A DNA stretch of 64,000 bases from Pristiophorus japonicus (GCF_044704955.1 NC_092003.1:8494001-8558000), one strand, 5' to 3'; numbered from the stretch's first letter, positions 21,701 through 63,110 are shown. Notes: generated by a model not told the origin, from the sequence alone. Numbers and translations are program-made.

Positions 21701-24700
21701 TTGTTGGCGCAGAGTAGAGGCAGTGCGAAGCTGCTGGGGCATCGAGCTAATGCCGCTGGCTCCCAGTCTGCAGACAGCAACAATTGCACGATGAACCTGG
21801 CAGATTTGCGGAGGCTGGCAGCCTTGTATAACTCAAGTAAGTGTGAGTTTACTTGGGTTATACAAGGACTGAGAGAGAGCCAGTCACAGTTGTTACCTGG
21901 GGCTTGGTTTACTGAAGGTATAGGATTTGCATTTACATAGCGCCTTTCACAACCTCAGGAATCTCCCAACGCACTTTGCAGAACAGTTCACTGCAGGACT
22001 TCTTGAAGTGGAATATAGGAAACGCGTCAGCCAATTTTGGGCATGGTAACGTCCCACAAACTGCAACGTGATAATGACCAGATCATCTATTTTAGTGAGG
22101 GATAAATATTGGCCAGGACGGTATTTAAAGAAAGAAAAGACTTGCATTTATATAGCGCCTTTCACGACCACCGAATGTCTCAAAACGCTTTACAGGCAAC
22201 GAAGTACTTTTGGAGTGTAGTCACTGTTGCAATGTGGGAAACGCAGCAGCCAATTTGCGCACAGCAAGCTCCCACACACAGCAATGTGACAATGACCAGA
22301 TCATCTGCTTTAGGTGATGTTGGTTCAGGGATAAATATTGGCCCCGGGATAGTATTTAAGATGACATTTGTACTCCCTTTTCAAGGAGTTGGGTTCAAAT
22401 GGACCTCCCTGTATTTAAAGAAAAAATGTCACAATTTTCTTTGAAAGGGATATGGGGACAGTTCAGGAAAGTGGAGTTGAGGTCGAAGATCAGCCATGAT
22501 CTTATTGAATGGCGAAGCAGGCTCGAGGGGCAGAATGGCCGACTCCTGCTCCGATTTCTTTATGTTTTTATGAAACGGCACTTGCACTGTGGAAGAACAC
22601 TCCAGCGGGATAGTTGTAGATTCTGTCCTTCCGTTGCGCCCAGAGAGCTTATCTACTGAGCCATGGCTGACACTTTGTACATAAAGACATCCCAAAATAT
22701 TTCATAAAAACTTATTTAACCTAAGAGTTCTCTTCTCTTCTCACCCTCAGTTGAGTACAGCTCCCTCAGCAGAAACCAAGGATGAACTGGGGAGCTTTCT
22801 GGTCTCTCCAGCTCAATTCCAGAGAGACCATTGCAATTATATTCATGCAAATATCAATGTTGTTGGCTCCAAAGCCAAACTGCAAGAAAACAAAGCTGGA
22901 CATTCCGCATACTCATACACAAACATTGCATAATCATTGTGACCTTTACAGTGTCTCTCAGAAAGTTGGGGACAGTGTAGCAAGACTTCAGAAAAAATGA
23001 CTTAAGCCAAAGTGTTTTATGCTTTTTGAATGCACTCAACATTAGGATTAGGAGCAGGAGTAGGCCATGCAGCCACTCGAGCCTGCTCCGCCATTTAATA
23101 AGATCATGGCTGATCTTCGACTCCGACTCTGCCTTCCCGCCCGATCCCCATATCCCTCGACAATCCAAAAATCTATTGACCTCAGTCTTGAATATACTCA
23201 ACGACTGAGCATCTGCCCATTGGGGTAGAGAATTCCAAAGATTCACCACCCTCTGAGTAACAATTTCTCATCTCAGTCTTAAATGGCTGACCCCTTATCC
23301 TGAGACTGTGTGACCCCTGGTTCTAGACTCCCCAGCCCGGGGGAAACACCCTCCCTGCATCTACCCTGTCAAGCCCCCTCAGAATCATGTATGTTTCAAT
23401 GAGATCACCTCTCATTCTTCTAAATTCTAGAGAGTACAGGTCTAATCTACTCACTCGCTGTGTGATCTTAAATCGGTCACATCAGATTGCTCCAACCATA
23501 ACCAGATCGGTCACCGCCAGACCACCCTGCTGTTATCGAGCTCAAAACGCTCTCTCCACACACAGCCCAAGTGTAAAAGGCCAAAACATATGACTGTACC
23601 ATTGGGAATCCATTCCCCGATTCATGTATCTTTTATAAAGCTTACAAAAACACAAAACTACACTGGATTTGGGATCACTAAGGGAGATGACTTGATCTCA
23701 CTAGAGAGCTGCAAAATCAGGTCAGTGCTGTCACAGCACTCATTAATGTATTAGCACCGAAATGCTAACATTTTTTAAAATAACACACCAGCCAATATAC
23801 TTAAACACCGTCAGGTTTTTGTGCGCTGCTCATAATACATTATCTCAGCTACAAGCATTAGAGTCAGCTGTGCCTCAATAGGTAGCACTCTCTCGTCTGT
23901 GAGTTCGAAGGTTGTGGGTTCAAGTCGCACTCCTAGACTTGAGAACAGAAGTCCAGGCCGACACTCCCAGTGCAGTGCTGATGGAGCGCCACACTGTCGG
24001 AGGGGCGGTGGCGAGGGAGTGCCGCACTGTGGGAAGTACTGTCTTTTGGATGAGACGGTAAACCGAGGCCCCGTCTGCCCTCTGGGGTGAATGTAAAAGA
24101 TCCCGCGGCACTATTTAGAAGAAGCGCTGGGGAGTGATCCCCGGCGTCCAGGGGCCAATATTTATCCCCGGCGTCCAGGGGCCAGTATTTATCCCCGGCG
24201 TCCAGGGGCCAGTATTTATCCCCGGCGTCCAGGGGCCAATATTTATCCCTGCCGTCCAGGGGCCAGTATTTATCCCCGGCGTCCAGGGGCCAATATTTAT
24301 CCCTGCCGTCCAGGGGCCAATATTTATCCCCGGCGTCCAGGGGCCAATATTTATCCCCGGCATCCAGGGGCCAATATTTATCCCCGGCGTCCAGGGGCCA
24401 ATATTTATCCCTGCCGTCCAGGGGCCAGTATTTATCCCTGCCGTCCAGGGGCCAATATTTATCCCCGGCGTCCAGGGGCCAATATTTATCCCTGCCGTCC
24501 AGGGGCCAGTATTTATCCCCGGCATCCAGGGGCCAGTATTTATCCCCGGCGTCCAGGGGCCAATATTTATCCCTGCCGTCCAGGGTCCAGTATTTATCCC
24601 CGGCGTCCAGGGGCCAGTATTTATCCCCGGCGTCCAGGGGCCAGTATTTATCCCCGGCGTCCAGGGGCCAGTATTTATCCCCGGCGTCCAGGGGCCAGTA

Positions 24701-26362
24701 TTTATCCCTGCCGTCCAGGGGCCAGTATTTATCCCTGCCGTCCAGGGGCCAGTATTTATCCCCGACGTCAAGGGGCCATTATCCCTGCCGACCAGGGGCC
24801 AGTATTTATCCCTGCCGTCCAGGGGCCAGTATTTATCCCTGCCGTCCAGGGGCCAGTATTTATCCCCGGCGTCCAGGGGCCAGTATTTATCCCCGGCGTC
24901 CAGGGGCCAGTATTTATCCCTGCCGTCCAGGGGCCAGTATTTATCCCTGCCGTCCAGGGGCCAGTATTTATCCCCGACGTCAAGGGGCCATTATCCCTGC
25001 CGACCAGGGGCCAGTATTTATCCCTGCCGTCCAGGGGCCAGTATTTATCCCTGCCGTCCAGGGGCCAGTATTTATCCCCGGCGTCCAGGGGCCATTATCC
25101 CTGCCGACCAGGGGCCAGTATTTATCCCTGCCGACCAGGGGCCAGTATTTATCCCCGGCGTCCAGGGGCCATTATCCCTGCCGACCAGGGGCCAGTATTT
25201 ATCCCTGCCGACCAGGGGCCAGTATTTATCCCCGGCGTCCAGGGGCCATTATCCCTGCCGACCAGGGGCCAATATTTATCCCTGCCGTCCAGGGGCCAGT
25301 ATTTATCCCCGGCGTCCAGGGGCCAGTATTTATCCCTGCCGACCAGAGGCCAGTATTTATCCCTGCCGACCAGGGGCCAGTATTTATCCCTGCCGACCAG
25401 AGGCCAGTATTTATCCCTGCCGACCAGAGGCCAGTATTTATCCCTGCCGACCAGGGGCCAGTATTTATCCCCGGCGTCCAGGGGCCAGTATTTATCCCTC
25501 AACCGACATCACAGCAACAGATGATCCGGTGATTATCACATCGCTGTTTGTGGGAGCTTGCTGTGCGCAAATTGGTGGCCCCGTTTTTTTTACATTACAA
25601 CAGTGACTACACTCCAAAAGTACTTCACTGGCTGTGAAGCGCTTTGGGACGTCCAGTGGCCCTGAAAGGCGCTATATAAATGCAAGTCTGCCTTTTCTTT
25701 CACACCCGACACCATTGACAGGGTGAATGCAGTCAGAAAGCCCTTCGCACCCACGCCAGTCGCAGTGACACCACTCAGGGTGGTCTGAACACCACAATTT
25801 GCAGGGCCTCACCGGCCTGGGGCTGAGCCTGGGCCTCGCTGGGAGGCTTCTGGCCGTTCTCCTCTTGCTTGCTCCCGGCTTTTTCCGCCTCTTGCTCCTC
25901 CTGCCCGGGCTGCTGCTGCTGCTCCTTGTCCGCCTGCTCCATGGCCTCGAGCTTCTGCTCCCCCTCGCCTTGCTCTTGCCCCTGCTCCTCCGGCCGAGGC
26001 TCAGGCTGGGTAGGCCGCACCTCATCCTCGGCCTCGCCCGCGGCGCGCTGCCGCCCCTCGGCTTTTTCCTCCATTTCCTCCTCGTCGTCCTCGGCCAGGA
26101 GCTCGTCCTCGTCCTCCTCCTCCTCGTCGTCGTCCTCTTCCTCCTCGTCGCCGCCGTCGTCGTCGTGGCGGCGCTGGCGCTGGTAGGCCTTGCTAGGCCG
26201 CGCCTCGTCGCCGCCCGCCTCGTCGCCCAGCAGCTCGGCGTCCAGGGCCTCCTGCAGCCGCTGCGCCAGCTCGGCCTTCAGGCCGCGGGCGTCGAGGCCC
26301 CGCTCCTGCAGCTCCTGCCGCAGCTCGGCCACCTTCATCTTCTTCACGTCCAGGCCGCTCAT
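3716..26362 (-). CDS. HNRNPUL2: Heterogeneous nuclear ribonucleoprotein U-like 2, complete 14-exon CDS (2286 nt, 761 aa)
   Basis: Exons 25813-26362, 18439-18604, 16811-16887, 15985-16124, 14313-14412, 14063-14175, 12932-13195, 12232-12354, 11152-11280, 9674-9842, 8832-9017, 7468-7568, 4302-4409, 3716-3775. All introns are GT-AG with consistent phases. Domains: SAP, acidic tract, SPRY, P-loop (GMPGVGKT), RY-rich tail. Motifs such as [24 protein letters not shown] and YRDYYREY match recalled human HNRNPUL2 better than HNRNPU or HNRNPUL1. Confidence 0.93.
4302..4409 (-). CDS. HNRNPUL2: HNRNPUL2 exon 13
   Basis: [36 protein letters not shown]. Confidence 0.9.
4855..5362 (-). mobile_element. CR1 LINE 3' fragment
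   Basis: [27 protein letters not shown] + CR1 3' UTR. Confidence 0.88.
5370..7445 (+). mobile_element. L2 LINE 3' fragment interrupted by a CR1 insertion (6424-7289)
   Basis: L2 RT motifs [28 protein letters not shown]; CR1 C-terminus inside; L2 tail ATATAAATACGAGTTGTTG. Confidence 0.85.
7468..7568 (-). CDS. HNRNPUL2: HNRNPUL2 exon 12
   Basis: [34 protein letters not shown]; TAG acceptor and GTAAGA donor. Confidence 0.88.
7990..8475 (+). mobile_element. Degraded CR1 fragment
   Basis: [25 protein letters not shown]. Confidence 0.75.
8832..9017 (-). CDS. HNRNPUL2: HNRNPUL2 exon 11
   Basis: [38 protein letters not shown]...[10 protein letters not shown]. Confidence 0.94.
9674..9842 (-). CDS. 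HNRNPUL2: HNRNPUL2 exon 10
   Basis: [56 protein letters not shown]. Confidence 0.95.
10525..11010. repeat. 39-bp minisatellite (~12 copies)
   Basis: Unit TGCTGTTTAAATAGATACTGTAGACTGTTTGCCGTAGTG. Confidence 0.9.
11152..11280 (-). CDS. HNRNPUL2: HNRNPUL2 exon 9
   Basis: [43 protein letters not shown] (Walker B-like). Confidence 0.94.
12232..12354 (-). CDS. HNRNPUL2: HNRNPUL2 exon 8 (Walker A)
   Basis: [41 protein letters not shown]. Confidence 0.95.
12365..12890 (-). mobile_element. tRNA-derived Deu-domain SINE (SacSINE1/AmnSINE-like) with internal 33-bp repeats
   Basis: Deu core TGTGGGAGCTTGCTGTGTGCAAAT.., head CAGCCGTGGCTCAGTGG, tail CTATATAAATGCAAGT. Confidence 0.8.
12932..13195 (-). CDS. 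HNRNPUL2: HNRNPUL2 exon 7
   Basis: [15 protein letters not shown]...[26 protein letters not shown]...DACE. Confidence 0.95.
13488..13905. repeat. ~69-bp minisatellite (~6 copies)
   Basis: Unit GGGAGCTTTACTCTGTATCTAACCCCGTGCTGTACCTGCCCTGGGAGTGTTTGATGGGACAGTGTAGA. Confidence 0.9.
14063..14175 (-). CDS. HNRNPUL2: HNRNPUL2 exon 6 (SPRY)
   Basis: [37 protein letters not shown]. Confidence 0.94.
14313..14412 (-). CDS. HNRNPUL2: HNRNPUL2 exon 5 (SPRY)
   Basis: [34 protein letters not shown]. Confidence 0.92.
15035..15515 (-). mobile_element. CR1 3' fragment
   Basis: [17 protein letters not shown]. Confidence 0.8.
15640..15966 (+). mobile_element. RTE-derived short non-autonomous element
   Basis: Ends GTGGAAGCAAGTCATCC..GAGGGACTGCCTA(TGA)n like the RTE copies in this window; related copy at ~63490-63790 (-). 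Confidence 0.6.
15985..16124 (-). CDS. HNRNPUL2: HNRNPUL2 exon 4 (SPRY)
   Basis: [47 protein letters not shown]. Confidence 0.95.
16811..16887 (-). CDS. HNRNPUL2: HNRNPUL2 exon 3
   Basis: [25 protein letters not shown]; CAG acceptor and GTAAGT donor; not in ORF track. Confidence 0.9.
18439..18604 (-). CDS. HNRNPUL2: HNRNPUL2 exon 2
   Basis: EKPNSEQ...[26 protein letters not shown]; AG/GT borders, phase 1->2. Confidence 0.88.
19865..20465 (-). mobile_element. CR1 3' fragment
   Basis: Same family as 40057-41540. Confidence 0.88.
20495..20790 (+). mobile_element. tRNA-headed SINE
   Basis: A/B-box-like head (TAGCATGGTGG...GAGTTCAAATCCC); 3' part shared with the LINE tails at 45335 and 49770. 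Confidence 0.6.
21320..22345 (-). mobile_element. Cluster of three 5'-truncated Deu-SINE copies
   Basis: Repeated TTGCATTT..AGCGCCT..CAGCCAAT.TGCGCACAGCAAGCTCCCAC. Confidence 0.75.
23865..25690 (+). mobile_element. Full-length Deu-SINE expanded by an internal 27-bp array
   Basis: tRNA head at ~23865, array at 24137-25500, Deu domain and tail at 25500-25690. Confidence 0.85.
24137..25500. repeat. 27-bp minisatellite (~50 copies)
   Basis: Unit ATCCCCGGCGTCCAGGGGCCA(A/G)TATTT; some 22-bp deletion variants. Confidence 0.95.
25813..26362 (-). CDS. HNRNPUL2: HNRNPUL2 exon 1 (SAP domain + acidic region)
   Basis: [41 protein letters not shown]...; donor G|GTGAGG. Confidence 0.95.
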
Positions 26363-26569
26363 CCTCCTCCTCCTCCTCCTCCCTCCTCCCTCCCTCCTCC
26401 TCTCGCCGGCGCGCCAAAACCAAAAAAAAAACCAAATTATTTTCCCTCCTCCTCCTTCCGTAAACAAAACAAAAAAAAAAACAACCGTTTCTTTTAATTT
26501 TTTTTTAAATTTCGACCGTTTTTTTTGGCCGTTTAACGGTCGGAAAAATAATTTTTTATATTTTTTTTT

Positions 26570-27489: not shown

Positions 27490-28195
27490 ACTGTGGCCGG
27501 CTGAGGAAGAAAGTGTTCGAAGATCAGGCCCTTAAATCTGGCACCAAGCTCATGGTCTACAGTGATATCCGCCCTCCTGTATGGCTCAGAGACTTGGACC
27601 ATGTACAGTAGACACCGCTGGAGAAAGACCACCAACGATGTCTCCGCAAGATCCTGCAAGTCCCCTGGGAGGACAGACGCACCAACGTTAGCGTCCTCGA
27701 CCAGGCCAACATCCCCAGCATCGAAGCACTGACCACACTCGACCAGCTCCGTTGGGCAGGTCACAATGTTCACATGCCCGATACGAGACTCCAAAAGCCA
27801 GCGCTCTACTCGGAACTCTTACACGGCAAGCAAGCCCCAGCTGGGCAGAGGAAATATTTCAAGGACACCCTCCAAGCCGCCCTGATAAAGTGCAACATCC
27901 CCAGTGACACCTGGGAGTCCCTGGCCCAAAGACCAGTCCGCCCTAAGTGGAGGAAGTGGATCCGGGAGGACGCTGAGCACCTCGAGTCTCGTCACCGAGA
28001 GCGTGCAGAAACCAAGCGCAGGCAGCAGAAGGAGCGTACGGCTAAACCAGTCCCACCCACCCCTTCCCTCAACAACTATCTGTTCCACCTGTGACAGGGA
28101 CTGTGGTTCTCGTATTGGACTGTTCAGCCACCTGAGAACTCACTTTTAGAAAGGAAGCAAGTCTTCCTCGGTTTCGAGGGACTGCTTATGATGAA
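27490..28195 (+). mobile_element. RTE-clade LINE 3' fragment nested in a Deu-SINE (27395-28455)
   Basis: LRWAGH..MPDTRLQKPALYSEL, C..CDRDC.SRIGLFSH zinc-finger end, (TGA)n tail. Confidence 0.85.
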
Positions 28196-31058: not shown

Positions 31059-31690
31059 GTCATGAAGACCAAGGAGAGAGCGTAGGAGACATTTCTTGGC
31101 GGAGAGGGTGGTAGGAGCAGGGAATGCCATGCCACTGGGAGTGGTTGAGGCGGAAAACATTGCACCTTTGATGGGAAACGAGGACACAGTTTTGAAGCAA
31201 AGGAAAATACAGGGCTACGGGCAGAGATTGAGGCCAATGGGGTTCACAGAAACATAGAAATTTACAGCGCTGAAGGAGGCCATTTTGGCCCATCGTGTCC
31301 GCGCCGGCCGACAAAGAGCCGCACGGCCCTCGGTCAGCAGCCCTGAAGGTTACATATAAACCTATGAACAATGAACAATGGCGGACAGATAAAGAGCATC
31401 CAGCCCAACCAGTCCACCCCATACAATTGCGATCATATATCATATCATCATCATCATAGGCAGTCCCTCGGAATCGAGGAAGACTTGCTTCCATTCTTAA
31501 AATGAGTTCTTAGGTGGCTGAACAGTCCAATACGAGAACCACAGTCCCTGTCACAGGTGGGACAGACAGTGGTTGAGGGAAGGGGAGGGTGGGACTGGTT
31601 TGCCGCACGCTCCTTCCGCTGCCTGCGCTTGGTTTCTGCATGCTCTCGGCGATAAGACTCAAGGTGCTCAGCGCCCTCCCGGATGCACTT

Positions 31691-32360
31691 TGTTAGCGTT
31701 AGTGTTTTCTTAGAAGAATCACTCAACACTCAGGGTCGGTTCCAATGCTGAAGCAGCTTTTATTACGCTCAGCGGGAAGGAAAAACTCAGGACCGTATCC
31801 AGGTTTCTCTTGACAGAACAAAGAGTTACATGTACCTTTATATGTTTCACAACAGTTACAAAACAGTTTACTGCAGCTACACAGCCCATCACGGCTGGAC
31901 ACAAGCCAATCACAATGATTATAGATTACATATAGGTTATTTTAACCCAATAGAATTCCCCTTATGTCTCAGGAACCATGTGTTCGTCTTTTGTCAGCTT
32001 GGGCTGATTGATATAGGTTCTCTCACTAGTTCTTTCTTCTTGGAGAAATAATTGGTATATAGCCTTGTTTACAGCAAATGGTTTCCCTCTTATCTTTCTT
32101 CCTGAAATAATTGGTTTCATGGCCTTGTTCACAGGAGATGGTTTCCTTCTTATCTCTGTCTTCCCAGGCATTCCTACAGTGGGCCTCACAGGGTTATTGC
32201 TCGGTCAGTGAACGTTCAACAGTTCACAGTTTGACTACCTGATTTCCCATAATGCCTGGGCAGCCATTTTATGTGTGTGTCCATTTAAGCTTATGTGAGT
32301 TTTAAATATCCAGCAGGTGCCTAATGCCTAAGTCTATATATATTTCTACTCTCTACAACA
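31691..32360 (-). repeat. 3' LTR
   Basis: Identical to the 5' LTR by eye except 31812 G vs 37365 C; TATAAA at 31837-31842; AATAAA at 31759-31764; preceded by the PPT. Confidence 0.95.
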
Positions 32361-32361
32361 A

Positions 32362-32373
32362 TTCCCCCCTTTC
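32362..32373 (-). other. Polypurine tract
   Basis: GAAAGGGGGGAA immediately before the 3' LTR. Confidence 0.9.
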
Positions 32374-32499
32374 GGTAAAGGGACTAGTCCTAGTCCCCTT
32401 TTAACCGACCGTACTGCCTTTATCTGATATTTGTGCACTGCCCGGTACTCCTTGCCTCAACGTGCTGGCCAGTCACGCGGTTTCAGGAGTCCCGGTTGC

Positions 32500-34603
32500 T
32501 TAGATCAAATTAACAAAGGCTAGCTCCTCCCGTCCCCTTATCAAACAGGCTTGTTTAATATCCAGGGAACGGTGATTGGTCCGTTTCCGCCGTTTGTGGC
32601 GCCTGCATACCTGGCAGGCCATCACGCCCCATGTTATTGCTAAGATTAATTGTATTCCGACCAGTGTGTGTGAAATAATTCGAATCCATGGGTGGATATT
32701 CACATTTATTCCCCAGTCCCAGACCTTTCTCCACCAACTCTGACTTTGTAAGTCTACCTCGGTATCTTCTTTGATTTTAGTTTGTAGCTGGTGATAGAGT
32801 TTTACAGATTGACCCACTCTGAGCCTCAACTCCCGTAATACTTAGGTTAGATGTGGGATAGGGACCTGCTCTGGCTCGTCATAATCCTGCAAATGATCAT
32901 GGAGCTGATCAGTTACTTCAATAACTTCGGACTTCCGGCGCCTAACCTGGGTGATATGCGATTGCCCGATTGCGACAGGTCGTAGTGGTGTAAAGCAAAA
33001 GTTTGGCTGCGGTATAGGGCACTGCAGGTCATTATACTGGTATGAACGCTCAGTAGTAGAGACGCAGTATCTTCCCCTCCCTCCGTAGCCTTCCCTCGCG
33101 AAGTGCATGTGTGCGGGCACTATTTCTAGTACACACCCGTTGGTTCGGTTAAACCCGCACTCGTCTAGTTCCCCTCGGCCCACCGGGTGAGGGCATACTG
33201 TGATTTCCCCCCTTTGCTTGCAATCTGCTAGGGAAATCCCAGTAAGTATGTTGTTTCGACGAACGGCAGAGGTGGTGGTTAGGTAGTAGCGAATGGAGAC
33301 ATTTTCCCGTATTACTCCGATATTCTCTAGTTGGTATAAGGGGAACGGCCCTGAGTCCGGCGTTGCTATGGGGATCAACAGGACTATCCCTATCCCGGTA
33401 GTCCTACCCATCTGGCAATCTGGAATTGCGGGGTATACTCGGGTCAGTCCCTTCAGAGTACAATTATCCAGTGTCCCCCTTTGGTTCGCCAACTGAGCCA
33501 AATGTGAACTGTCTATCCAATCGGGTACTTCCCCGCGTTGGATCTGGTCGAGGTTGTGGCGGATCTGTCCCACCATCCACAGACCATAAGCATGACAGAG
33601 TTGCCCCTGTCTTTGCTTTATTGTATCTTCTTGTTCTCTATCAATGAGGTGATTGATGGTTTTAGCGTGAGCTTCCAGGACTGAGATGCCATCCAACTGG
33701 ATTTCGGCACCCTCCTTTCCTAGGTTGGCCTGGTCTTCCTGGTTTTGCTCCACCCTCTCCAATAACCCCTTCATCACCCCTTTAAGCTGTTCTACCCTCT
33801 CATTTAGCCCTTGTATGTCTATCGAGTTCACTACGGAGGTTCCTGTATTGAAAACGGTAGCAACATCATTTACTATTTCCCTCTTCACCCTGGGTGCTAA
33901 CCCCTGTCCCCGGAACTTACTGGCACCCATGGCATCGGCAGCCTGCTGCATTACGACTTTACTTAATACATTGTACATCTTCCTTGACTGTTCGGTACAA
34001 TATTCCGGCATCTGGATGCCTGAAATATTGATCAGAACAGGCACAATTTCATGTTTAACATTATCATACAATAATTCCCCTTCGTTGTACATTGCAATCC
34101 CATTTTCTGGTCCCTTAGTAGTTATGGGACAAGGCAGTTCTTCGGGCAATGTAGTGATTCTTATGGGGCGCGGTGTCGGAGGGGGTGAGAAACATACATA
34201 CAATTATATTGCAGCCGCCCCCGCCTCCTCGTAATACCCACACAGCCCCATTCCCTTCTTGCGGATGACTGATTGCTGGGATTGTCCCGGAGGCGCGCAA
34301 ATTATGCCAAAAGTACATTTATCAGGCCCTTTGACATCCCTCCGTTTAATGCATCTGCTCCTTATACCCGTGGAGCACTGTACACATACTCTTATTCTTA
34401 TTAGGATTCTTATTAAAATAAGTCCTGTCCTTGCTCCAGTCCTTGGCTGCTGGGATGCACATTCCGTCCGTTAAATTAAACAAGACTCCATAGTTCATAT
34501 AGTTGTTTATTTCCAGCGTGCTCTGCAATCCGTCGGTGTTGCCCAGGGTACGTGCCTGTCGCAGGGCTATCCATATTACGAGTAGCGCCGTTCGTATTCC
34601 CAT
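32500..34603 (-). pseudogene. env: Disrupted env, class-I fusion glycoprotein of F-protein-like architecture (~700 codons)
   Basis: Signal peptide MGIRTALLVIWIALRQART (ATG 34603); frameshift near 34390-34420; in-frame TAA at 34204-34206; furin site RVKR at 33880-33891; heptad region; Cys-rich domain; in-frame TAA at 32842-32844; Trp-rich MPER, TM helix and basic tail RRHKRRKR. Confidence 0.85.
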
Positions 34604-36555
34604 TCCGGTAAGTATTATCTGTAATTTTAAACAGACGGCCTGGTCGTCACCAGGGGTTAAGTTTTTTTGCTCTACGAGTGTCCCTGTCACCCTGCAAAAT
34701 CAGAAGCACAAGGTTATAATCGAACCATTTCGAGCTGAATCTGTAGGGCGTGCGCCTGTGTCTTTACCCACTTAAATATTACCCAAACTCCTATTATGAC
34801 CAAGGCCAAAGCTATTCCTCCAAACATCGCTGTCTGCTTTACCGTTAGGTTGGGTTTGTGGACTACACCTACCCACCGTGGGGTACATTGGCTCTATTGC
34901 CAGAGGTGATGGTGCTATGGCTGCGCACTGCACTATCCGTCTAGTCCCGTTATCTCTTCCAGCCTGTTTATCTTAGCTTTTAACTCTTCAATTTGTTTTA
35001 TTGAATATCTATTTCTTTATTGTATCAGGCAAGTATTATTACATAAGCTAGTTCTATTTTTATTTTTGTTTCCTCTGTTAGGTGAGTCTTTTTTTTTCCC
35101 TATTAAGAAATCCAAATTAATAATGTTCAGTATAAAACGGCTGTCAATGGAAAGGGTTAACTCCTTTCCAGGTTTGTAAGAAGACCTGATGTCATTACGT
35201 GACTTCACGTAATCATCTGGAAAAAAAAAGTCTTTGTGCCTTCAAAACTGGCTTCGAAATTAGGAATCCGTTAAACAGCATAAATCATTAGAGTAAACTC
35301 CAATGTTTTCTTAACTTCTAATTCAAGTACTTGCCAAAGAATTATTTTTTTTTTTTAATTGTTTTAAAACAAGACCACACATACAATAGCAATTTTGTTT
35401 ACTGAAATTCAATTCTGTTTTTTTTTATTTCTCTCTTTCTCCTCGTTATCTTCAAAACCCTCCTGCTTGTTTAGACTGTTCGGGACATTTTGGAAATCTT
35501 TTCAAACTGCATTGAAACTTTTTCATAATTGAAAATTCGAATCCATGTAGAGTGTTTTTTACTTATTCCAATTTTTTTTTTTTCTAATTAAACCAATATC
35601 TTTTTCACAGCAAACATCAACTAGTATTTAGTAAGTTATGTCTTTTTCCATTTAGTCTGTTACATCTTTTTTTTCTTTCTTCAAATTAGGTTTTGTATTT
35701 TACACGGAGGGTTCGTAACTCCATAAAGTTGTTAATTTAAAATTTGTTTACTTTCAAAGTGGCATCTTTATCTTTTTCTTTTTCTCCATAACTGGAATGA
35801 AGTCCATCTTTGAGAGTTTGAGTGCTTTTTCGTTATCTCAAAATGCTCCAGTTTCAAAGTCGTTACTAAAGCTTGCTGTTTTTTAACATTTTCCAAAAGT
35901 TCCTTTTACACCTTCGCAGATAGCTCGCCACTTGCCCAGGAGTTTGACCTGATCAGATTTAATTTAATCTTTTTTTTTTTTAAATCCACCTCAGTATTTC
36001 CTGTGCCTTCTCTGAATATCTCAAAATCCCAATTCAAACTTTGTAATTTCAATCTTTATTTAAAACTTTTTTTTTAGAAGCTCTCTTTTTTTTCAGCATT
36101 CTTTATCTCATTCCGAGACTAAATTTATGTCTTTCAACCCAATCAATCATTGCATGTTTTCTTTCGGCAAGTAAGTGAGCATGTCAAATAAATATTTTGC
36201 TCAACAAACCTATTCTTTATTTGTTTATTTTCCTAGCTCCGTAACTTATCATCCGAATAAATCCACACCTGCGTTTCTAACTTAAATGTCTTAAAACTTC
36301 CCACATACAGGACAACATTACAAAGGGTTTAAAAAAAAAGACTTTCACTCTGTTTCTAAAATAAACAGACACTTGCATTCCTCTTCCAACCAGACTTTCG
36401 GAACATGAAAACATAAAAAAATTCATTCTGCAGTCAAAAATCACACAGACACTTCTCACTCAACGATTTACAACAGTCTCTCTTCTTGTTTTGGCCGGCT
36501 CTATTTTTGGATCCATGACCTTTCAGGGAATTCGTAGTTTTATCTAAATAATTCC

Positions 36556-36687
36556 TCACATAACTAATTCCTGAGGATTCCACCCTGCTTTAATCATATT
36601 TTCAATAAGCTTCTTTTGTTTTTCCGCCAGGTGGCGGGTAAGCGACCCTTCTGGTCCCCACTCGAGTTTACTTGTTTTCATGGCCAT
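36556..36687 (-). pseudogene. Probable gag N-terminal remnant (43 aa)
   Basis: MAMKTSKLEWGPEGSLTRHLAEKQKKLIENMIKAGWNPQELVM* lies at the expected gag position after a ~540-nt leader and is followed by stop-riddled, A-rich sequence. Confidence 0.4.
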
Positions 36688-37223
36688 TCCTGGGTAGGAC
36701 TACTACCGTTAGGAATCTACTCTCAGAGGTCCGCTTTCTTTCTAGCGCGACTTGTAGTAAACTTTCTCTTGGCTACTGTCAGGTCACAAGTTCTGCTGTT
36801 GCACAAACTTATACAATTCTTAAAAACGCGTTTAAGCAATTCCCGCAGTGCTCTACATATCCTTAACGACTACCTACCACCGCTCAGCCCGTTGGTCCGA
36901 CCCTGTTCACAGGTTTGGATTCCGTTAGCCGCTGTACACCGCTTGGTTCTATCCCGGGGTATTTCAAATTACACTACTGGGTCCGGAAGATGTCTCTCGG
37001 TATCACGATCCCACGGTCTAAGTGTGTTCCCTACGCCTACTTGGTTCCTGGCCGTCACGTGGGACAAAAGTCCTCTTAATTCAGGCTCAGGCTAGGCGTT
37101 TGAGATATTAGACCGTCTCCTCATGTCGATCAACCAGCTTCCACCTTCCGCACCCTTTATACTTAAAAATAGTTTTTTTATACTCACCCGGGTTTTTTCC
37201 AAGGGCGTCCAGCGACTCCGGGA

Positions 37224-37242
37224 AATCCTGCCGACTACGCCA
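37224..37242 (-). other. Primer-binding site complementary to tRNA-Ser 3' end
   Basis: Minus strand reads TGGCGTAGTCGGCAGGATT, 1 nt after the LTR; complementary to the vertebrate tRNA-Ser 3' end ...AATCCTGCCGACTACG-CCA. Confidence 0.92.
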
Positions 37243-37243
37243 T

Positions 37244-37913
37244 TGTTAGCGTTAGTGTTTTCTTAGAAGAATCACTCAACACTCAGGGTCGGTTCCAATG
37301 CTGAAGCAGCTTTTATTACGCTCAGCGGGAAGGAAAAACTCAGGACCGTATCCAGGTTTCTCTTCACAGAACAAAGAGTTACATGTACCTTTATATGTTT
37401 CACAACAGTTACAAAACAGTTTACTGCAGCTACACAGCCCATCACGGCTGGACACAAGCCAATCACAATGATTATAGATTACATATAGGTTATTTTAACC
37501 CAATAGAATTCCCCTTATGTCTCAGGAACCATGTGTTCGTCTTTTGTCAGCTTGGGCTGATTGATATAGGTTCTCTCACTAGTTCTTTCTTCTTGGAGAA
37601 ATAATTGGTATATAGCCTTGTTTACAGCAAATGGTTTCCCTCTTATCTTTCTTCCTGAAATAATTGGTTTCATGGCCTTGTTCACAGGAGATGGTTTCCT
37701 TCTTATCTCTGTCTTCCCAGGCATTCCTACAGTGGGCCTCACAGGGTTATTGCTCGGTCAGTGAACGTTCAACAGTTCACAGTTTGACTACCTGATTTCC
37801 CATAATGCCTGGGCAGCCATTTTATGTGTGTGTCCATTTAAGCTTATGTGAGTTTTAAATATCCAGCAGGTGCCTAATGCCTAAGTCTATATATATTTCT
37901 ACTCTCTACAACA
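37244..37913 (-). repeat. 5' LTR
   Basis: TGTTG...TAACA on the minus strand; TATAAA at 37390-37395; AATAAA at 37312-37317; followed by the PBS. Confidence 0.95.
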
Positions 37914-38709
37914 CACTTCCTCCACTTAGGGCGGACTGGTCTTTGGCCAGGGACTCCCAGGTGTCGGTGGGGTTGTCGCACTTTATCAGGGAGGCTTTGA
38001 GGGTGTCCCTGTAACATTTCCTCTGCCCACCTTCGGCGCGTTTGCCGTGAAGGAGTTCCGAGTAGAGCGCTCGCTTTGGGAGTCTCATGTCAGGCATACG
38101 AACAATGTGGCCCGCCCAGCGGAGCTGATCGAGTGTGGTCAGTGCTTTGATGCTGGGGATGTTGGCCTGATCGAGGACGGTAACCTTTGGTGCGTCTGTC
38201 CTCCCAGGGGATTTGTAGGATCTTGCGGAGACATCGTTGGTGGTATTTCTCCAGCAACTTGAGGTGTCTACTGTACACCTGTTATTACAACTGCGATACC
38301 CCATGCATCGCAACATTTTACACTTCACCCCACGCGGAGCTGTGCAATCTGGGAGAGGCCAAAAAAACAGATAAAACCCAGGCCAATTGGGAAAAAAATT
38401 TGGAAAAATTCCTCTCTGACCCATCCAGGTGATCAAAACTAGTCCGGGAGATCACTCTGGCGGGATTAGATTCCCTGACGTACTTACCTTCGTATCTGCG
38501 CCAGCCAACAAGAGGTTATCTAGTCTAGCGACAACTTTCCCAGTGGCTTATGACTGGTAAGCATCAAGGCTGTGACCTCCCACTCTGAACTCCAGTGGAC
38601 CACTGACCCTCTCAATGCCTGCCCTCAACCAAGCCCCCGACCATCTACCATCAAGGGCGCTACTCGGAGCTGAGCTTGTGGCCAATATCTCGCCGTAGGC
38701 AATTAGGCT

Positions 38710-39324: not shown

Positions 39325-40052
39325 TCCATGCCTTTGTTACCTCTCGACTCGACTATTCCAACGAACTCCTGGCCAGCCTCCCACCTTGCACCCTCCGTCA
39401 ACTTGAGCTCATCTAAAACTCTGCTGCCCATATCCTAACTCGCACCGAGTCCCGCTCACCCATCACCCCCTGTGCTCACTGCCCTGTATCCTAACTTGCA
39501 CCGAGTCCCACTCACCCATCACCCCCTGTGCTCGCTGCATCATGTCCTAACTCGCACCGAGTCCCGCTCACCCATCACTCCTCTGTGCTCGCTGCCCCAT
39601 GTCCTAGCTCGCACCGAGTCCCGCTCACCCATCACCCCCTGTGCTCGCTGCCCTGTGTCCTAACTCGCACCGAGTCCCGCTCACCCATCATCCCCTGTGC
39701 TCGCTGACCTACATTGGCTCCCGGTCCAGCAACTCCTCGATTTTTAAAATTCTAATCCTTGCGTTTAAATTCCTCCCTGGCCCCCATGGCCTCGCCCCCT
39801 CGCTATCTCTGTAACCTACTCCAGCCTTACAAACCACTGAGATGTCTGCGCTCCTCCAATTCTGGCTTCTTGTGCATCGGGGGCTTCTTGTGCATCCCCC
39901 GATTTCCATCGCTCCACCATCGGTGGCCGTGCCTCCAGCTGCCTGGGCCCCAAGCTCTGGAACTCCCTCCCTAAACCTCTCCGCCTCTCTCTCCTCCTTT
40001 AAAATGCACCTTAAAACCTACCAGTCTTTTGGTCACAAGTCCTAATATCTCC
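39325..40052 (+). mobile_element. L2 3' fragment with 56-57-bp tandem repeats
   Basis: SRLDYSN; ~5 x CCTAACTCGCACCGAGTCCCGCTCACCCATCACCCCCTGTGCTCGCTG. Confidence 0.85.
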
Positions 40053-40056
40053 TAAT

Positions 40057-41540
40057 AGTTCCTATGGAGTGGAGGGTAGCCAATGTAACCCCACTTTTTA
40101 AAAAAGGAGGGAGAGAGATAACAGGGAATTATAGACCGGTCAGCCTGACATCGGTAGTGGGTAAAATGATGGAATCAATTATTCAGGATGTCATAGCAGT
40201 GCATTTGGAAAGAGGTGACATGATAGGTCCAAGTCAGCATGGATTTGTGAAAGGGAAATCATGCTTGACAAATCTTCTGGAATTTTTTGAGGATGTTTCC
40301 AGTAGAGTGGACAAGGGAGAACCAGTTGATGTGGTATATTTGGACTTTCAGAAGGCTTTCGACAAGGTCCCACACAAGAGATTAATGTGCAAAGTTAAAG
40401 CACATGGGATTGAGGGTAGTGTGCTGACATGGATTGAGAACTGGTTGTCAGACAGGAAGCAAAGAGTAGGAGTAAATGGGGACTTTTCAGAATGGCAGGC
40501 AGTGACTAGTGGGGTACCGCAAGGTTCTGTGCTGGGGCCCCAGCTGTTTACACTGTACATTAATGATTTAGACGAGGGGATTAAATGTAGTATCTCCAAA
40601 TTTGCGGATGACACTAAGTTGGGTGGCAGTATGAGCTGCGAGGAGGATGCTATGAGGCTGCAGAGCGACTTGGATAGGTTAGGTGAGTGGGCAAATGCAT
40701 GGCAGATGAAGTATAATGTGGATAAATGTGAGGTTGTCCACTTTGGTGGTAAAAACAGAGAGACAGACTATTATCTGAATGGTGACAGATTAGGAAAAGG
40801 GGAGGTGCAAAGAGACCTGGGTGTCATGGTACATCAGTCATTGAAGGTTGGCATGCAGGTACAGCAGGTGGTTAAGAAAGCAAATGGCATGTTGGCCTTC
40901 ATAGCGAGGGGATTTGAGTACAGGGGCAGGGAGGTGTTGCTACAGTTGTACAGGGCCTTGGTGAGGCCACACCTGGAGTATTGTGTACAGTTTTGGTCAC
41001 CTAACCTGAGGAAGAACATTCTTGCTATTGAGAGAGTGCAGCGAAGGTTCACCAGACTGATTCCCGGGATGGCGGGACTGACCTATCAAGAAAGACTGGA
41101 TCAACTGGGCTTGTAATCATTGGAGTTCAGAAGAATGAGAGGGGACCTCATAGAAACTTTAAAATTCTGACGGGGTTAGACAGGTTAGATGCAGGAAGAA
41201 TGTTCCCAATGTTGGGGAAGTCCAGAACCAAGGGACACAGTCTAAGGATAAGGGGTAAGCCATTTAGGACCGAGATGAGGAGGAATTTCTTTACCCAGAG
41301 AGTGGTGAACCTGTGGAATTCTCTACCACAGAAAGTTGTTGAGGACAATTCACTAAATATATTCAAAAAGGAGTTAGATGAAGTCCTTACTACTCGGGGG
41401 ATCAAGGGGTATGGTGAGAAAGCAGGAATGGGGTACTGAAGTTGCATGTTCAGCCATGAACTCATTGAATGGTGGTGCAGGCTAGAAGGGCCGAATGGCC
41501 TACTCCTGCACCTATTTTCTATGTCTATGTTTCTATGTTT
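40057..41540 (+). mobile_element. 5'-truncated CR1 LINE with 350-aa open RT segment, nested in an L2 3' end
   Basis: [39 protein letters not shown]; L2 tail resumes at ~41543. Confidence 0.93.
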
Positions 41541-41639
41541 CTTATGTGGCTCGGTGCCAAGTTTTGACTGATTATCGCTCCTGTGAAGCACTTTGGGATG
41601 TTTTACTACGTTAAAAGGTGCTATACAAATACATATAAG

Positions 41640-44600
41640 AACATATAAGAAGGAGTGGTGCAGAAGGAAGGGAGATTCAAATTCCTGGCACATTGGAACC
41701 GGTTCTGGGGGAGGTGGGACCAGTACAAACTGGACGGTCTGTACCTGGGCAGGACCAGAACCATTGATCTAGGGGGAGTGTTTGCTAGTGCTGTTGGGGA
41801 GGGGTTAAACTAATATGGCAGGGGGATGGGAACCTATGCAGGGACATAAAATGGAGGCAGAAGCAAAAGATAGAAAGAAGAATAGTAAAAGTGGAGGGCA
41901 GAGAAACCCATGGCAAAAAACAAAAAGGGCCACATTACAAGCAAAATTCTAAAGGGGCAACTTGTGTTTAAAAGGCAAGCCTGGAGGCTCTGTGCCTCAA
42001 TGCAAGGAGTATTCGGAATAAGGTAGATGAATTAACTGCGCAGATAGCAGTTCACGGATATGATGTAATTGGCATCACGGAGACATGGCTCCAGGATGAC
42101 CAAGGCTGGGAACTCAACATCCAGGGGTATTCAACATTTATGAAGGATAGACAGGAAAAGGAGGCGGGGTGGTGTTGCTGGTTGGACGAAATTAATGCTG
42201 TAGTAAGGAGGGACATTAGCTTGGATGATGTGGAATCGGTATGGGTGGAGCTGCGGAATATCAAAGGGCAGAAAACGCTAGTGGGAGTTGTGCACAGACC
42301 ACCAAACAGTAGTAGTGAGGTTGGGGACAGCATCAAAAAAGAAATAAGGGATGTGTGCAATAAAGGTACAGCAGTTATCATGGGCGAATTTAATCTACAT
42401 ATTGACTGGGCTAACCAAACTGGTAGCAATGCGGTGGAGGACGATTTCCTAGAGTGTATTCGGGATGATTTTCGAGACCAATATGTCGAGGAACCAACGA
42501 GAGAGCTGGCCATCCAAGACTGGGTGTTGTGTAATGAGAAGGGACTAATTGGCAATCTTGTTGTGCGAGGCCCCTTGGGGAAGAGTGACCATAATATGGT
42601 AGAATTCTTTATTAAGATGGAGAGTGACACAGTTACTTCAGAAACAAGGGTCCTGAACTTAAGGAAAGGTAACTTCGATGGTATGAGGCGTGAATTGGCT
42701 AGAGTAGACTGGAAAATTATGCTTAAAGTGTTGGCGGTGGATAGGCAATGGCAAACATTTAAAGATCACATGGATGAACTTCAACAATGTACATCTCTGT
42801 CTGGAGTAAAAATAAAACGGTGAAGGTGGCTCAACCGTGGCTAACAAGGGAAATTAAGGATAGTGTTAGATCCAAGGAAGAGGCATATAAATTGGCCAGA
42901 AAAAGCAGTAAACCTGAGGACTGGGAGAAATTTAGAATTCAGCAGAGGAGGACAAAGGGTTTAATTAAGAGGGGGAAAATAGAGTAGGAGAGGAAGCTTG
43001 CCGGGAACATAAAAACTGACTGCAGAAGCATTTATAGATATGTGAAGAGAAAAAGATTCGTGAAGACAAACGTAAGTCCCTTGTAGTCAGATTCAGGTGA
43101 ATTTATAATGGGGAACAAAGAAATGGCAGACCAATTGAACAAATACTTTGGTTCTGTCTTCACGAAGGAAGACGCAAATAACCTTCCGAATGTATAAGGA
43201 AGCCGTGGGTCTAGTGAGAAGGAAGAACTGAAGGAAATCCTTATTAGGCGGGAAATTGTGTTAGGGAAATTGATGGGATTGAAGGCCGATAAATCCCTGG
43301 GGCCTGCTAGTCTGCATCCCAGAGTACTTAAGGAAGTAGCCCTAGAAATAGTGGATGCATTGTTGATCATTTTCCAACAGTCTATCGACTCTGGATCAGT
43401 TCCCATGGACTGGAGGGTAGCTAATGTAACACCACTTTTTTAAAAAGGAGGGAAAGAGAAAACGGGTAATTATAGACCGGTTAGCCTGACATCAGTAGTG
43501 GTGAAGATGTTGGAATCAATCATTAAGGATGAAATAGCAGCGCATTTGGAAAGCAGTGACAGGATCGGTCTGAGTCAGCATGGATTTATGAAAGGGAAAT
43601 CATGCTTGACGAATCTTCTGGAATTTTTAAGGCTGTAACTAGTAGAGTGGACAAGGGAGAACCAGTGGATGTGGTGTATTTGGACTTTCAAAAGGCTTTT
43701 GACAAGGTCCCACACAAGAGATTGGTGTGCAAAATCAAAGCACATGGTATTGGGGGTAATGTACTGACGTGGATAGAGAACTGGTTGGCAGACAGGAAGC
43801 AGAGAGTCGGGATGAACGGGTCTTTTTCAAAATGGCAGGCAGTGACTAGTGGGGTGCCGCAGGGCTCAGTGCTGGGACCCCAGCTCTTTACAATATACAT
43901 TAACGATTTAGATGAAGGAATTGAGTGTAATATCTCCAAGTTTGTGGATGACACTAAACTGGGTGACGGTGTGAGCTGTGAGGAGGACGTTAAGAGGCTG
44001 CAGGGTGACTTGGACAGGTTAGGTGAGTGGGCAAATGTATGGCAGATGCACTATAATGTGGGTTATCCACTTTGGGGGCAAAAACACGGAGGCAGAATAT
44101 TATCTGAATGGTGGCAGATTAGGAAAAGGGGAGATGCAACGAGACCTGGGTGTCATAGTACATCAGTCATTGAAAGTTGGCATGCAGGTACAGCAGGCGT
44201 TGAAGAAGGCAAATGGTATGTTGGCCTTCATAGCTAGGGGATTTGAGTATAGGAGCAGGGAGGTCTTACTGCAGTTGTACAGAGCCTTGGTGAGGCCTCA
44301 CCTGGAATATTGTGTTCCTAATCTGAGGAAGGACATTCTTGCTATTGAGGGAGTGCAGCGAAGATTCACCATACTGATTCCTGGGATGGCTGGACTGACA
44401 TATGAGGAGAGACTGGATCAAGTGGGCCTTTATACACTGGAGTTTAGAAGGATGAGAGGGGATCTCATAAGATTCTGATGGGACTGGATAGGTTAGATGC
44501 GGGAAGAATGTTTCCGATGTTTGGAAAGTCCAGAACCAAGGGACACAGTCCAAGGGGTAGGCCATTTATGACTGAGATGAGGAGAAACTTCTTCACTCAG

Positions 44601-62069: not shown

Positions 62070-63110
62070 GAAACATAGACATAGAAGCATAGAAAATAGG
62101 TGCAGGAGTAGGCCATTCGGCCTTTCGAGCCTGCACCACCATTCAATAAAATCATGGCTGATCATTCACCTCAGTACCCCATTCCTGCTTTCTCTCCATA
62201 CTGCTTGATTCCTTTAACTGTAAGGGCCACATCTAACTCCCTTTTGAACATATCTAACGAACTGGCCTCAACAACTTTCTGTGGTAGAGAATTCCATAGG
62301 TTCACAATTCTCTGAGTGAAGAAGTTTCTCCTCATCTCGGTCCTAAATGGTTTACCCCTTATCCTTAGACTGTGACCCCTGGTTCTGGACTTCCCCAACA
62401 TTGGGAACATTCTTCCTGCGTCTAACTGGTCCAAACCTGTCAGAATTTTATATGTTTCTATGAGATCCCCTCTCATTCTTCTAAATTTCAGTGAATATAA
62501 GCCTAGTAGATCCAGTCTTTCTTCATATGTCAGTCCTGCCATCCCTGGAATCAGTCTGGTGAACCTTCGCTGCACTTCCTCAATAGCAAGAATGTCCTTC
62601 CTCAGATTAGGAGACCAAAACTGTACACAATACTCCAGGTGAGGCCTCACCAAGGCCCTGTACAACTGTAGTAAGACCTCCCTGCTCCTATACTTAATTC
62701 CTCTCGCTATGAAGGCCAACAAGCCATTTGCCTTCTTCACCGCCTGCTGTACCTGCATGTCAACTTTCAATGACTGATGTACCATGACACCCAGGTCTCA
62801 ATGCACCTCCCCTTTTTCTAATCTGTCACCATTCAGATAATATTCTGCCTTCTTGTTTTTGCCACCAAAGTGGATAACCTCACATTTATCTACATTATAC
62901 TGCATCTGCCATGTATTTGCCCACTCACCTAACCTGTCCAAGTCACCCTGCAGCCTCTTCGCATCCTCCTCACAGCTCACACTGCCACCCAGCTTAGTGT
63001 CATCTGCAAACTTGGAGATATTACATTCAATTCCTTCGTCTAAATCATTAATGTATATTGCAACTGAACCTTGCAGTACCCCACTAGTCACTGCCTGCCA
63101 TTCTGAAAAG
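62070..63110 (-). mobile_element. CR1 LINE 3' portion (RT C-terminal half)
   Basis: [24 protein letters not shown], 3' UTR. Confidence 0.9.

What the first reader, a model, noticed from the sequence alone, without database searches (positions are those of the whole stretch)
31691..37913. Very recent insertion of a coding-dead provirus, implying an active helper/parasite retroelement system
Seen: the LTRs differ at only 1 of 670 positions (31812/37365), and the TSD, 19-nt tRNA-Ser PBS and PPT are intact. Yet no pol is recognisable, the gag region is reduced to stop-riddled A-rich sequence, and env has three lesions. Inference: this much internal decay cannot have accumulated in the time that produced a single LTR mismatch. 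The element was therefore already defective when it integrated and must have been packaged and reverse-transcribed in trans by an autonomous partner. It may still be polymorphic in the population.
Basis: partly seen in the sequence, partly recalled or inferred. Interest (0 to 1): 0.8.

Follow-up and report, generated by a model that had tools for sequence, protein, structure and literature searches.

The report
Defective shark provirus, copied by helper
A retrovirus-like insertion in a shark genome has nearly identical end repeats but ruined genes, so it was most likely already broken when it inserted and was copied using another virus's enzymes, a known lifestyle, here in a little-described shark virus family.

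Summary
The anatomy is real. There are two 670-nt LTRs with one mismatch, a 5-bp target duplication (two uninterrupted LINE paralogs carry it once), a tRNA-Ser PBS, a PPT and a structured leader. No pol is present. env has four lesions rather than three, and the A-rich middle could not be shown to be gag. The LTR clock predicts about 2 substitutions in env and about 5 in the whole interior (P of two or more env stops about 0.005). The element was therefore almost certainly defective before it integrated and was mobilised in trans, unless gene conversion reset both LTRs. 'Very recent' and 'active' are overstated: at shark rates one mismatch means roughly 1 million generations (27,000 to 5.9 million). 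No helper, sister copy or polymorphism could be tested, and the two closest named copies (sawshark, 85-92%) do not share its stops. Helper-dependent defective ERVs are well known (cattle D-type ERVK, VL30, ETn, recKoRV, zebrafish Bik). What is less ordinary is the env. It belongs to an unannotated shark and frog family that folds like paramyxovirus F, and its parent lineage (epsilon-like, loki-like or foamy-like) is unresolved.

The parts
37244..37913 (-). 5' LTR, 670 nt, TG...CA; 60-nt tandem duplication at 37598-37717; AATAAA at 37317-37312
37224..37242 (-). Primer-binding site complementary to the tRNA-Ser 3' end, 1 nt from the LTR
   Evidence: motif found in tRNA-Ser papers (listing only); 19-nt length by recall
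36688..37243 (-). 5' leader, probable packaging signal (inferred). Most structured of 6 segments folded (z -4.41), CpG o/e 1.0. Candidate splice donors at 37187 and 36877; 36922-36875 matches the N-terminus of sawshark model P0009 (81% over 16 aa)
36556..36687 (-). 43-codon AUG ORF at the position where gag would start; identity untested, no database hit
34960..36450 (-). A-rich non-coding middle (41% A, GC 31%). 8 A-runs of 8 nt or more against a shuffle mean of 0.65 (max 4 in 500); unstructured. Origin not identified: decayed gag or a swapped-in segment
34717..34893 (-). 59-codon stop-free stretch with a strong transmembrane-like segment, preceded by a coiled-coil-like piece near 35000; relic of an unidentified membrane-protein gene
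   Evidence: no match to the env profile
32500..34603 (-). Broken env of paramyxovirus-F-like type: signal-peptide-like start, RVKR cleavage motif, heptads, transmembrane segment; four lesions; longest open piece 453 aa (32845-34203)
32362..32373 (-). Polypurine tract
31691..32360 (-). 3' LTR, 670 nt, one mismatch to the 5' LTR at 31812
31686..31690 (.). Target-site duplication, left copy
37914..37918 (.). Target-site duplication, right copy
31444..31690 (-). Host LINE-like repeat, downstream half, split by the insertion (RTE-type by recall; weak C2H2 finger, below Pfam cut-off)
37914..38277 (-). Host LINE-like repeat, upstream half; 88% identical to the uninterrupted paralog at 27602-27958

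Best explanation
This is a non-autonomous endogenous retrovirus of a shark. Shown: all cis signals for one retroviral cycle are intact (LTRs, tRNA-Ser PBS, structured leader, PPT), the ends were processed in integrase fashion (TG...CA, 5-bp duplication), and no enzyme gene is encoded. Inferred: an ancestor lost pol and its coding sequence drifted over earlier rounds of copying or residence. The parent copy was transcribed from its 5' LTR, packaged through the leader into particles made by a related gag-pol-bearing element or virus, primed with host tRNA-Ser, reverse-transcribed (which resets the two LTRs to identity) and integrated into a LINE. That happened somewhere between the recent past and a few million years ago; whether the helper is still active is unknown.
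For: Intact cis elements and a verified duplication. Lesion load incompatible with the LTR clock. No secondary insertions: 0 of 454 overlapping same-size windows elsewhere are repeat-free, and the longest repeat-free runs outside are 4.7 kb (at the window edge) and 2.2 kb. The leader folds better than shuffles (z -4.41), while 4 of 5 control segments do not. A relative in Chiloscyllium has an integrase C-terminal-like piece just before env (E 0.089, weak), and a 714-aa open env exists in Mustelus, so coding-competent relatives existed in sharks. Precedents: cattle D-type ERVK, VL30 and zebrafish Bik-1.
Against: No helper or sister copy was seen. There is none in the window, and the search for longer fused pol-env proteins found 0 of 3,593 candidates (weak). 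The closest named copies are only 85-92% identical and are open at the stops they span. One env control segment also folds well (z -3.19), so the leader signal is not unique. env CpG o/e (0.70) is barely above the flanking LINEs (0.61-0.68), so it does not show youth.
Confidence: 0.8

Rival explanations
1. An old provirus that decayed in place, whose two LTRs were later homogenised by gene conversion or recombination.
For: LTR conversion is a recognised cause of underestimated ages (PMC5512871 passage). Sharks evolve slowly. A single locus cannot exclude it.
Against: Conversion would have to cover all 670 nt end to end. The duplication is perfect, the interior has no secondary repeat in a 42%-repeat neighbourhood, and the leader keeps CpG o/e 1.0 against 0.57 for the rest of the window. 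env is still 85-92% identical to paralogs while the middle is unrecognisable, which uniform decay in place would not give.
Confidence: 0.1
2. A one-off defective genome made in the last one or few rounds of an infecting virus (deletion, template switch into an unrelated RNA, or editing), integrated by that virus's own proteins and never amplified as a family.
For: No sister copy was found. The lesions are private among the protein records seen. The middle has no identified viral homology.
Against: Four independent env lesions and eight long A-runs suggest many rounds without selection. The A-rich zone is poorer in C (0.10-0.13 in most 300-nt blocks) than in G (0.16-0.22), which is not the signature of G-to-A editing.
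Confidence: 0.07
3. Artefact: LTR identity from assembly collapse or polishing, or lesions from sequencing error.
For: Homopolymer run lengths in the middle are error-prone. Reads were not available.
Against: The LTRs differ at one site and each joins unique, matching LINE halves. The env breaks are not in homopolymers (env has no A- or T-run of 6 or more). Nearby ORFs stay open for 211-356 codons. No error model removes a whole pol gene.
Confidence: 0.03

Closest known systems
Cattle ERVK[2-1-LTR] D-type; koala recKoRV; mouse ETn/MusD (PMC10924933, passages)
   Same: Defective provirus without functional genes, mobilised in trans. The D-type (about 6.8 kb) keeps LTRs and flanking gag/env portions around a poorly alignable central segment.
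   Different: There the helper and de novo insertions are demonstrated, and the cattle clade is ERVK. Here no helper or copy number is known, and env is F-type.
Mouse VL30 (PMC4859993, passages)
   Same: Stop-riddled interior with identical LTRs in 42 of 86 full-length copies; trans-complemented.
   Different: VL30 has no env; this element retains a nearly full-length broken env.
Zebrafish BHIKHARI Bik-1 (bioRxiv 2024.03.25.586437, passages)
   Same: Fish-lineage pol-less LTR element, recently mobile, partner inferred but not found.
   Different: Bik keeps an intact gag and lacks env; here the reverse relic pattern, with nothing intact.
Walleye epsilonretroviruses WEHV1 and WDSV; epsilon-like shark CmiERV II/III (PMC4422223)
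   Same: Their Env models are among the top 6 Foldseek hits (E 5e-13 and 2e-12). A shark relative has an MLV-type integrase tail before env (weak).
   Different: Env is about 700 aa against 1,159-1,317 aa, TM-scores are low (0.15-0.29) and other viruses rank higher. A 5-bp duplication is not the 4 bp I recall for class I ERVs.
Lokiretroviruses (PMC7947760)
   Same: Vertebrate LTR element with F-like Env: signal peptide, RXKR site, coiled coil, transmembrane segment.
   Different: Defined by RT phylogeny, which cannot be tested here. They were reported in 0 of 3 chondrichthyan genomes. No PF00523 hit by sequence.

Membership tests
Integrated LTR retroelement (provirus) | Paired LTRs with TG...CA ends, PBS, PPT, target-site duplication | tested here: met
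Non-autonomous ERV | No functional gag or pol | tested here: met
   Longest stop-free run in 34960-36690 is 74 codons, and PBS-to-env space is 2.62 kb; 0 of 6 frames with a Pfam hit
Non-autonomous ERV | Lesions predate integration | tested here: met
   P about 0.005 under the LTR clock, conditional on no gene conversion; no secondary insertions
Non-autonomous ERV | Dispersed copies share lesions; an autonomous partner has the same LTR and PBS | not testable with these tools
   No shark genome collection was available and cluster members could not be listed; protein records cannot show shared stops
F-type class I fusion Env | Paramyxo/pneumovirus F-like fold with RXKR site and transmembrane segment | tested here: met
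   Model of the open Mustelus relative P0001 (pLDDT 64, pTM 0.44): Foldseek E 1e-11 to hPIV3 F; VIA-align Z 9.9, rmsd 17.4, 382 aligned to NDV F, and the top 15 rows are all F proteins or foamy Env
Gamma-type Env ERVs | CX6CC motif | tested here: not met
   Absent in the window's open ORF and in P0001
Epsilon-like (class I) ERV | RT/IN phylogeny with epsilon- and gammaretroviruses | tested here: inconclusive
   No pol in the element. The relative P0007's N-terminus best matches the 2m9u integrase C-terminal domain at E 0.089 (MLV origin of 2m9u recalled)
Lokiretrovirus | RT sister to other retroviruses, tether plus RH, CGIN1-like IN | not testable with these tools
   No pol in the element
Lokiretrovirus | Env similar to published loki Env | tested here: inconclusive
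   0 of 6 short motifs and no PBS 12-mer in the supplement, which was cut when stored; exact-word tests are insensitive
Foamy-like ERV (FLERV) | FV-like pol; usually Lys, Asn or Thr PBS; accessory ORFs after env | tested here: inconclusive
   Foamy Env matches the fold (Z 8.1, rmsd 8.1, 276 aligned), but the PBS is Ser and only about 140 nt lie between env and the LTR
Ty3/gypsy errantivirus | Gypsy-type pol with an F-type env | tested here: inconclusive
   Atlas look-alikes include Baculo_F and Gypsy clusters at 0.91-0.92 with low recognition; the survey paper found no intact vertebrate ERVs homologous to invertebrate elements

The most novel reading that the evidence does not exclude
An undescribed retrovirus lineage with a paramyxovirus-F-type envelope is spread across sharks, with distant relatives in frogs, and is still invading at least one shark germline as a helper-parasite pair. 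The parasite is a recKoRV/D-type-like chimera whose A-rich middle and small membrane-protein relic were swapped in rather than decayed from gag. RT-based screens for invading ERVs would miss it by design.
Probability: 0.2. Interest if true: 0.62.

Novelty: new member of a known kind. Interest (0 to 1): 0.35.

Why it matters
The lifestyle is textbook, so the mechanism alone is not surprising. The value is in the lineage. Complete shark ERVs dated in the papers read are tens of millions of years old (54-75 Myr; earliest insertion about 36 Myr). This one is far younger and points to retroviral mobilisation in a shark germline within roughly the last few million years. The published screen for invading ERVs required an RT match, so pol-less elements like this are outside it. 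The env family is unannotated, invisible to Pfam, and adds a vertebrate branch to F-type retroviral envelopes. The insertion lies 5.3 kb upstream of an hnRNP U-family gene in the same orientation, so a cis effect is testable.

Tried and rejected
Pfam on env pieces and relatives gave no fusion-family hit (5, 4 and 24 proteins). PDB sequence searches with the env ORF and with a profile gave nothing significant. The search for longer fused pol-env proteins found 0 of 3,593 candidates. Rfam gave 0 hits on the region and on the window, and ARAGORN 0 tRNAs. The idea that the middle is a second, decayed copy of this env was rejected: the env profile scores all 12 frames below zero bits, and tblastn with 55 proteins gives only the leader match to P0009. 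G-to-A hypermutation was rejected on composition. The ribosomal L19 hits are taken as compositional. CpG content did not discriminate age for env. The low-ranking profile hits P0037, P0049 and P0051 are unrelated repeat proteins, and P0029, P0033 and P0039 look like chimeric gene models. The tree used 18 rows: 17 of the 55 stored proteins plus the window's open ORF, leaving out short, redundant or chimeric rows. Cluster sizes and names of close copies, and the identity of the transmembrane relic, stayed unchecked.

Full report
Observation. The element lies on the minus strand at 31691-37913. Its two 670-nt LTRs differ at 1 of 670 sites (31812/37365), end in TG...CA and are flanked by a 5-nt duplication; no other length from 3 to 8 matches. 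The flanks are two halves of one LINE-like repeat. Two uninterrupted paralogs in the window align to the left flank up to 27954 and 38976 and to the right flank from 27958 and 38980, so they carry the 5-mer once. A PBS starts 1 nt inside the 5' LTR. Its motif occurs in papers on human tRNA-Ser (PMC3299991 and PMC13478228 seen as search listings only), and the 19-nt length is from my recall. A 12-purine PPT precedes the 3' LTR. No other copy of the LTR or interior is in the window.

Host and env. The 453-aa open piece (32845-34203) has no Pfam or PDB sequence match. It hits 12 proteins among 3,728 candidates; the 11 named ones are all uncharacterised shark proteins: Pristiophorus japonicus 92% and 85%, Heterodontus 64%, Mustelus 61%, Chiloscyllium 54-61%. 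The host is therefore a shark. A profile search returned 47 proteins, including full-length distant relatives, two of them named from frogs. The shark rows form a starred clade (97/99), with the window sister to the sawshark copy P0002. A model of the open 714-aa Mustelus relative (pLDDT 64, pTM 0.44) matches paramyxo- and pneumovirus F proteins: Foldseek E 1e-11; VIA-align Z 9.9 to NDV F and 8.1 to foamy Env. Among predicted viral structures, walleye epsilonretrovirus Envs rank 5th and 6th. There is an RXKR site and no CX6CC motif.

Lesions. Against 19 relatives examined, env has a frame break near 34390-34410 (3 of 3 relatives that align on both sides), a stop at 34204-34206 (8 of 8 spanning relatives open), a stop at 32842-32844 (8 of 8 open) and an in-frame 3-codon loss near 32769 (5 of 5 that extend well past it). 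Protein records cannot contain stops, so copies sharing these lesions would be invisible to this comparison. Between PBS and env there are only 2.62 kb, too little for gag plus pol by established genome sizes. That stretch holds a structured, CpG-rich leader (z -4.41, against -3.19, -0.06, 0.60, 0.50 and 0.85 for five controls; CpG o/e 1.0), a 43-codon ORF where gag would start, a 1.5-kb A-rich zone with 8 A-runs of 8 nt or more (shuffle mean 0.65), and a transmembrane-like relic. None of it matched Pfam (0 of 6 frames) or the env profile. The 'gag' label is therefore positional only.

Timing argument. With 1 change in 1,340 LTR sites, the posterior expectation is 2.3 substitutions in env and 5.5 in the whole interior (upper bound 20). 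P(two or more nonsense changes) is 0.005. Loss of pol and scrambling of the middle cannot fit in that budget. Independently, the 4.9-kb interior has no dispersed-repeat hit, whereas 42% of the flanks are repeats and 0 of 454 overlapping 6.2-kb windows outside are repeat-free (the windows are not independent, and this shows only relative youth). Absolute age is loose. It is about 1.07 million generations (27,000 to 5.9 million) at 7e-10 per generation (PMC10587355 passages), or 3.4 Myr (0.09-19) at 2.2e-10 per year (PMC4422223 part 1 of 2). The LTR divergence (0.0015) is close to the diversity reported for the epaulette shark (0.002), so polymorphism is plausible but not implied. Present-day activity is not shown.

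Mechanism. Shown: intact cis signals, an integrase-type junction, and no enzymes. Inferred: transcription of a defective parent, packaging through the leader by a related gag-pol element or virus, tRNA-Ser priming, LTR resetting during reverse transcription, and integration into a LINE. Indirect signs of competent relatives are an integrase-tail-like piece before env in a Chiloscyllium model (E 0.089), the open Mustelus env with 7 cluster members, and a sawshark model that joins this leader to env. Against: no fused pol-env protein was found (0 of 3,593 candidates), and the closest copies are 8-15% diverged.

Comparison with known systems. It works like cattle D-type ERVK, recKoRV and ETn (PMC10924933 passages), VL30 (PMC4859993 passages) and zebrafish Bik-1 (bioRxiv 2024.03.25.586437 passages). 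Family membership needs RT, which is absent. F-like Env occurs in lokiretroviruses (PMC7947760 parts 1-3 of 4; 0 of 3 chondrichthyan genomes in its supplement, which was cut when stored), in foamy viruses (PMC11468914 passages) and in invertebrate errantiviruses (bioRxiv 2023.10.26.564294 abstract and passages). Epsilon Envs are described as neither gamma- nor beta-type (bioRxiv 2021.11.23.469661 parts 1-2 of 6 and passages). I lean to an epsilon-like parent at roughly even odds; the 5-bp duplication argues against it by my recall. PMC5210030, PMC8672886, PMC12583693, PMC10435555 and PMC10699275 were seen as passages.

Novelty. Searches showed no description of this shark env family or element. 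The library lacks most subscription papers and repeat databases, and bioRxiv supplements were closed, so an entry in Repbase, Dfam or a supplementary table is possible. Verdict: a real, relatively young, non-autonomous ERV and a new member of a known kind, with an under-described envelope lineage. Interest 0.35.

Noticed in passing
window 25775-26410 (-), ATG near 26362: First exon of an hnRNP U-family gene: SAP domain (Pfam E 6e-13; best PDB match 1zrj, E1B-55kDa-associated protein 5) followed by an acidic tract. The provirus lies 5.3 kb upstream in the same orientation, with its 3' LTR pointing at the gene.
   Followed up: partly
window 34717-35020 (-): Coiled-coil-like piece followed by a clean transmembrane-like segment just upstream of env. 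It does not match the env profile and may be a relic accessory membrane-protein gene.
   Followed up: partly
P0009 against window 36922-36875 and 34627 onward: A sawshark gene model begins with a peptide matching this element's leader and continues into env. This implies a same-family copy joined leader-to-env by splicing or deletion.
   Followed up: partly
P0001 (Mustelus asterias): A 714-aa open env of this family whose 90% cluster holds 7 member sequences: possibly a recent expansion or a kept gene in that shark.
   Followed up: no
P0046, P0055, P0023, P0042, P0044: Full-length distant relatives (677-757 aa); two are named from frogs (Pelodytes ibericus, Lithobates pipiens). P0044 has a weak V-set Ig-like match near its N-terminus.
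   Followed up: partly
window 24137-25499: 27-nt minisatellite of 51 copies (90% matches) just beyond the hnRNP U-family exon, open in several frames.
   Followed up: no
window 40046-44478, 62171-62797: LINE ORF2 fragments with RT (Pfam E 8e-35) and endonuclease domains. Many SINE-like and 33-nt/56-nt tandem-repeat families occur across the window, and 42% of the flanks are dispersed repeats.
   Followed up: no
window 32045-32164 and 37598-37717: 60-nt tandem duplication (85% matches) inside both LTRs, a possible U3 enhancer repeat.
   Followed up: no
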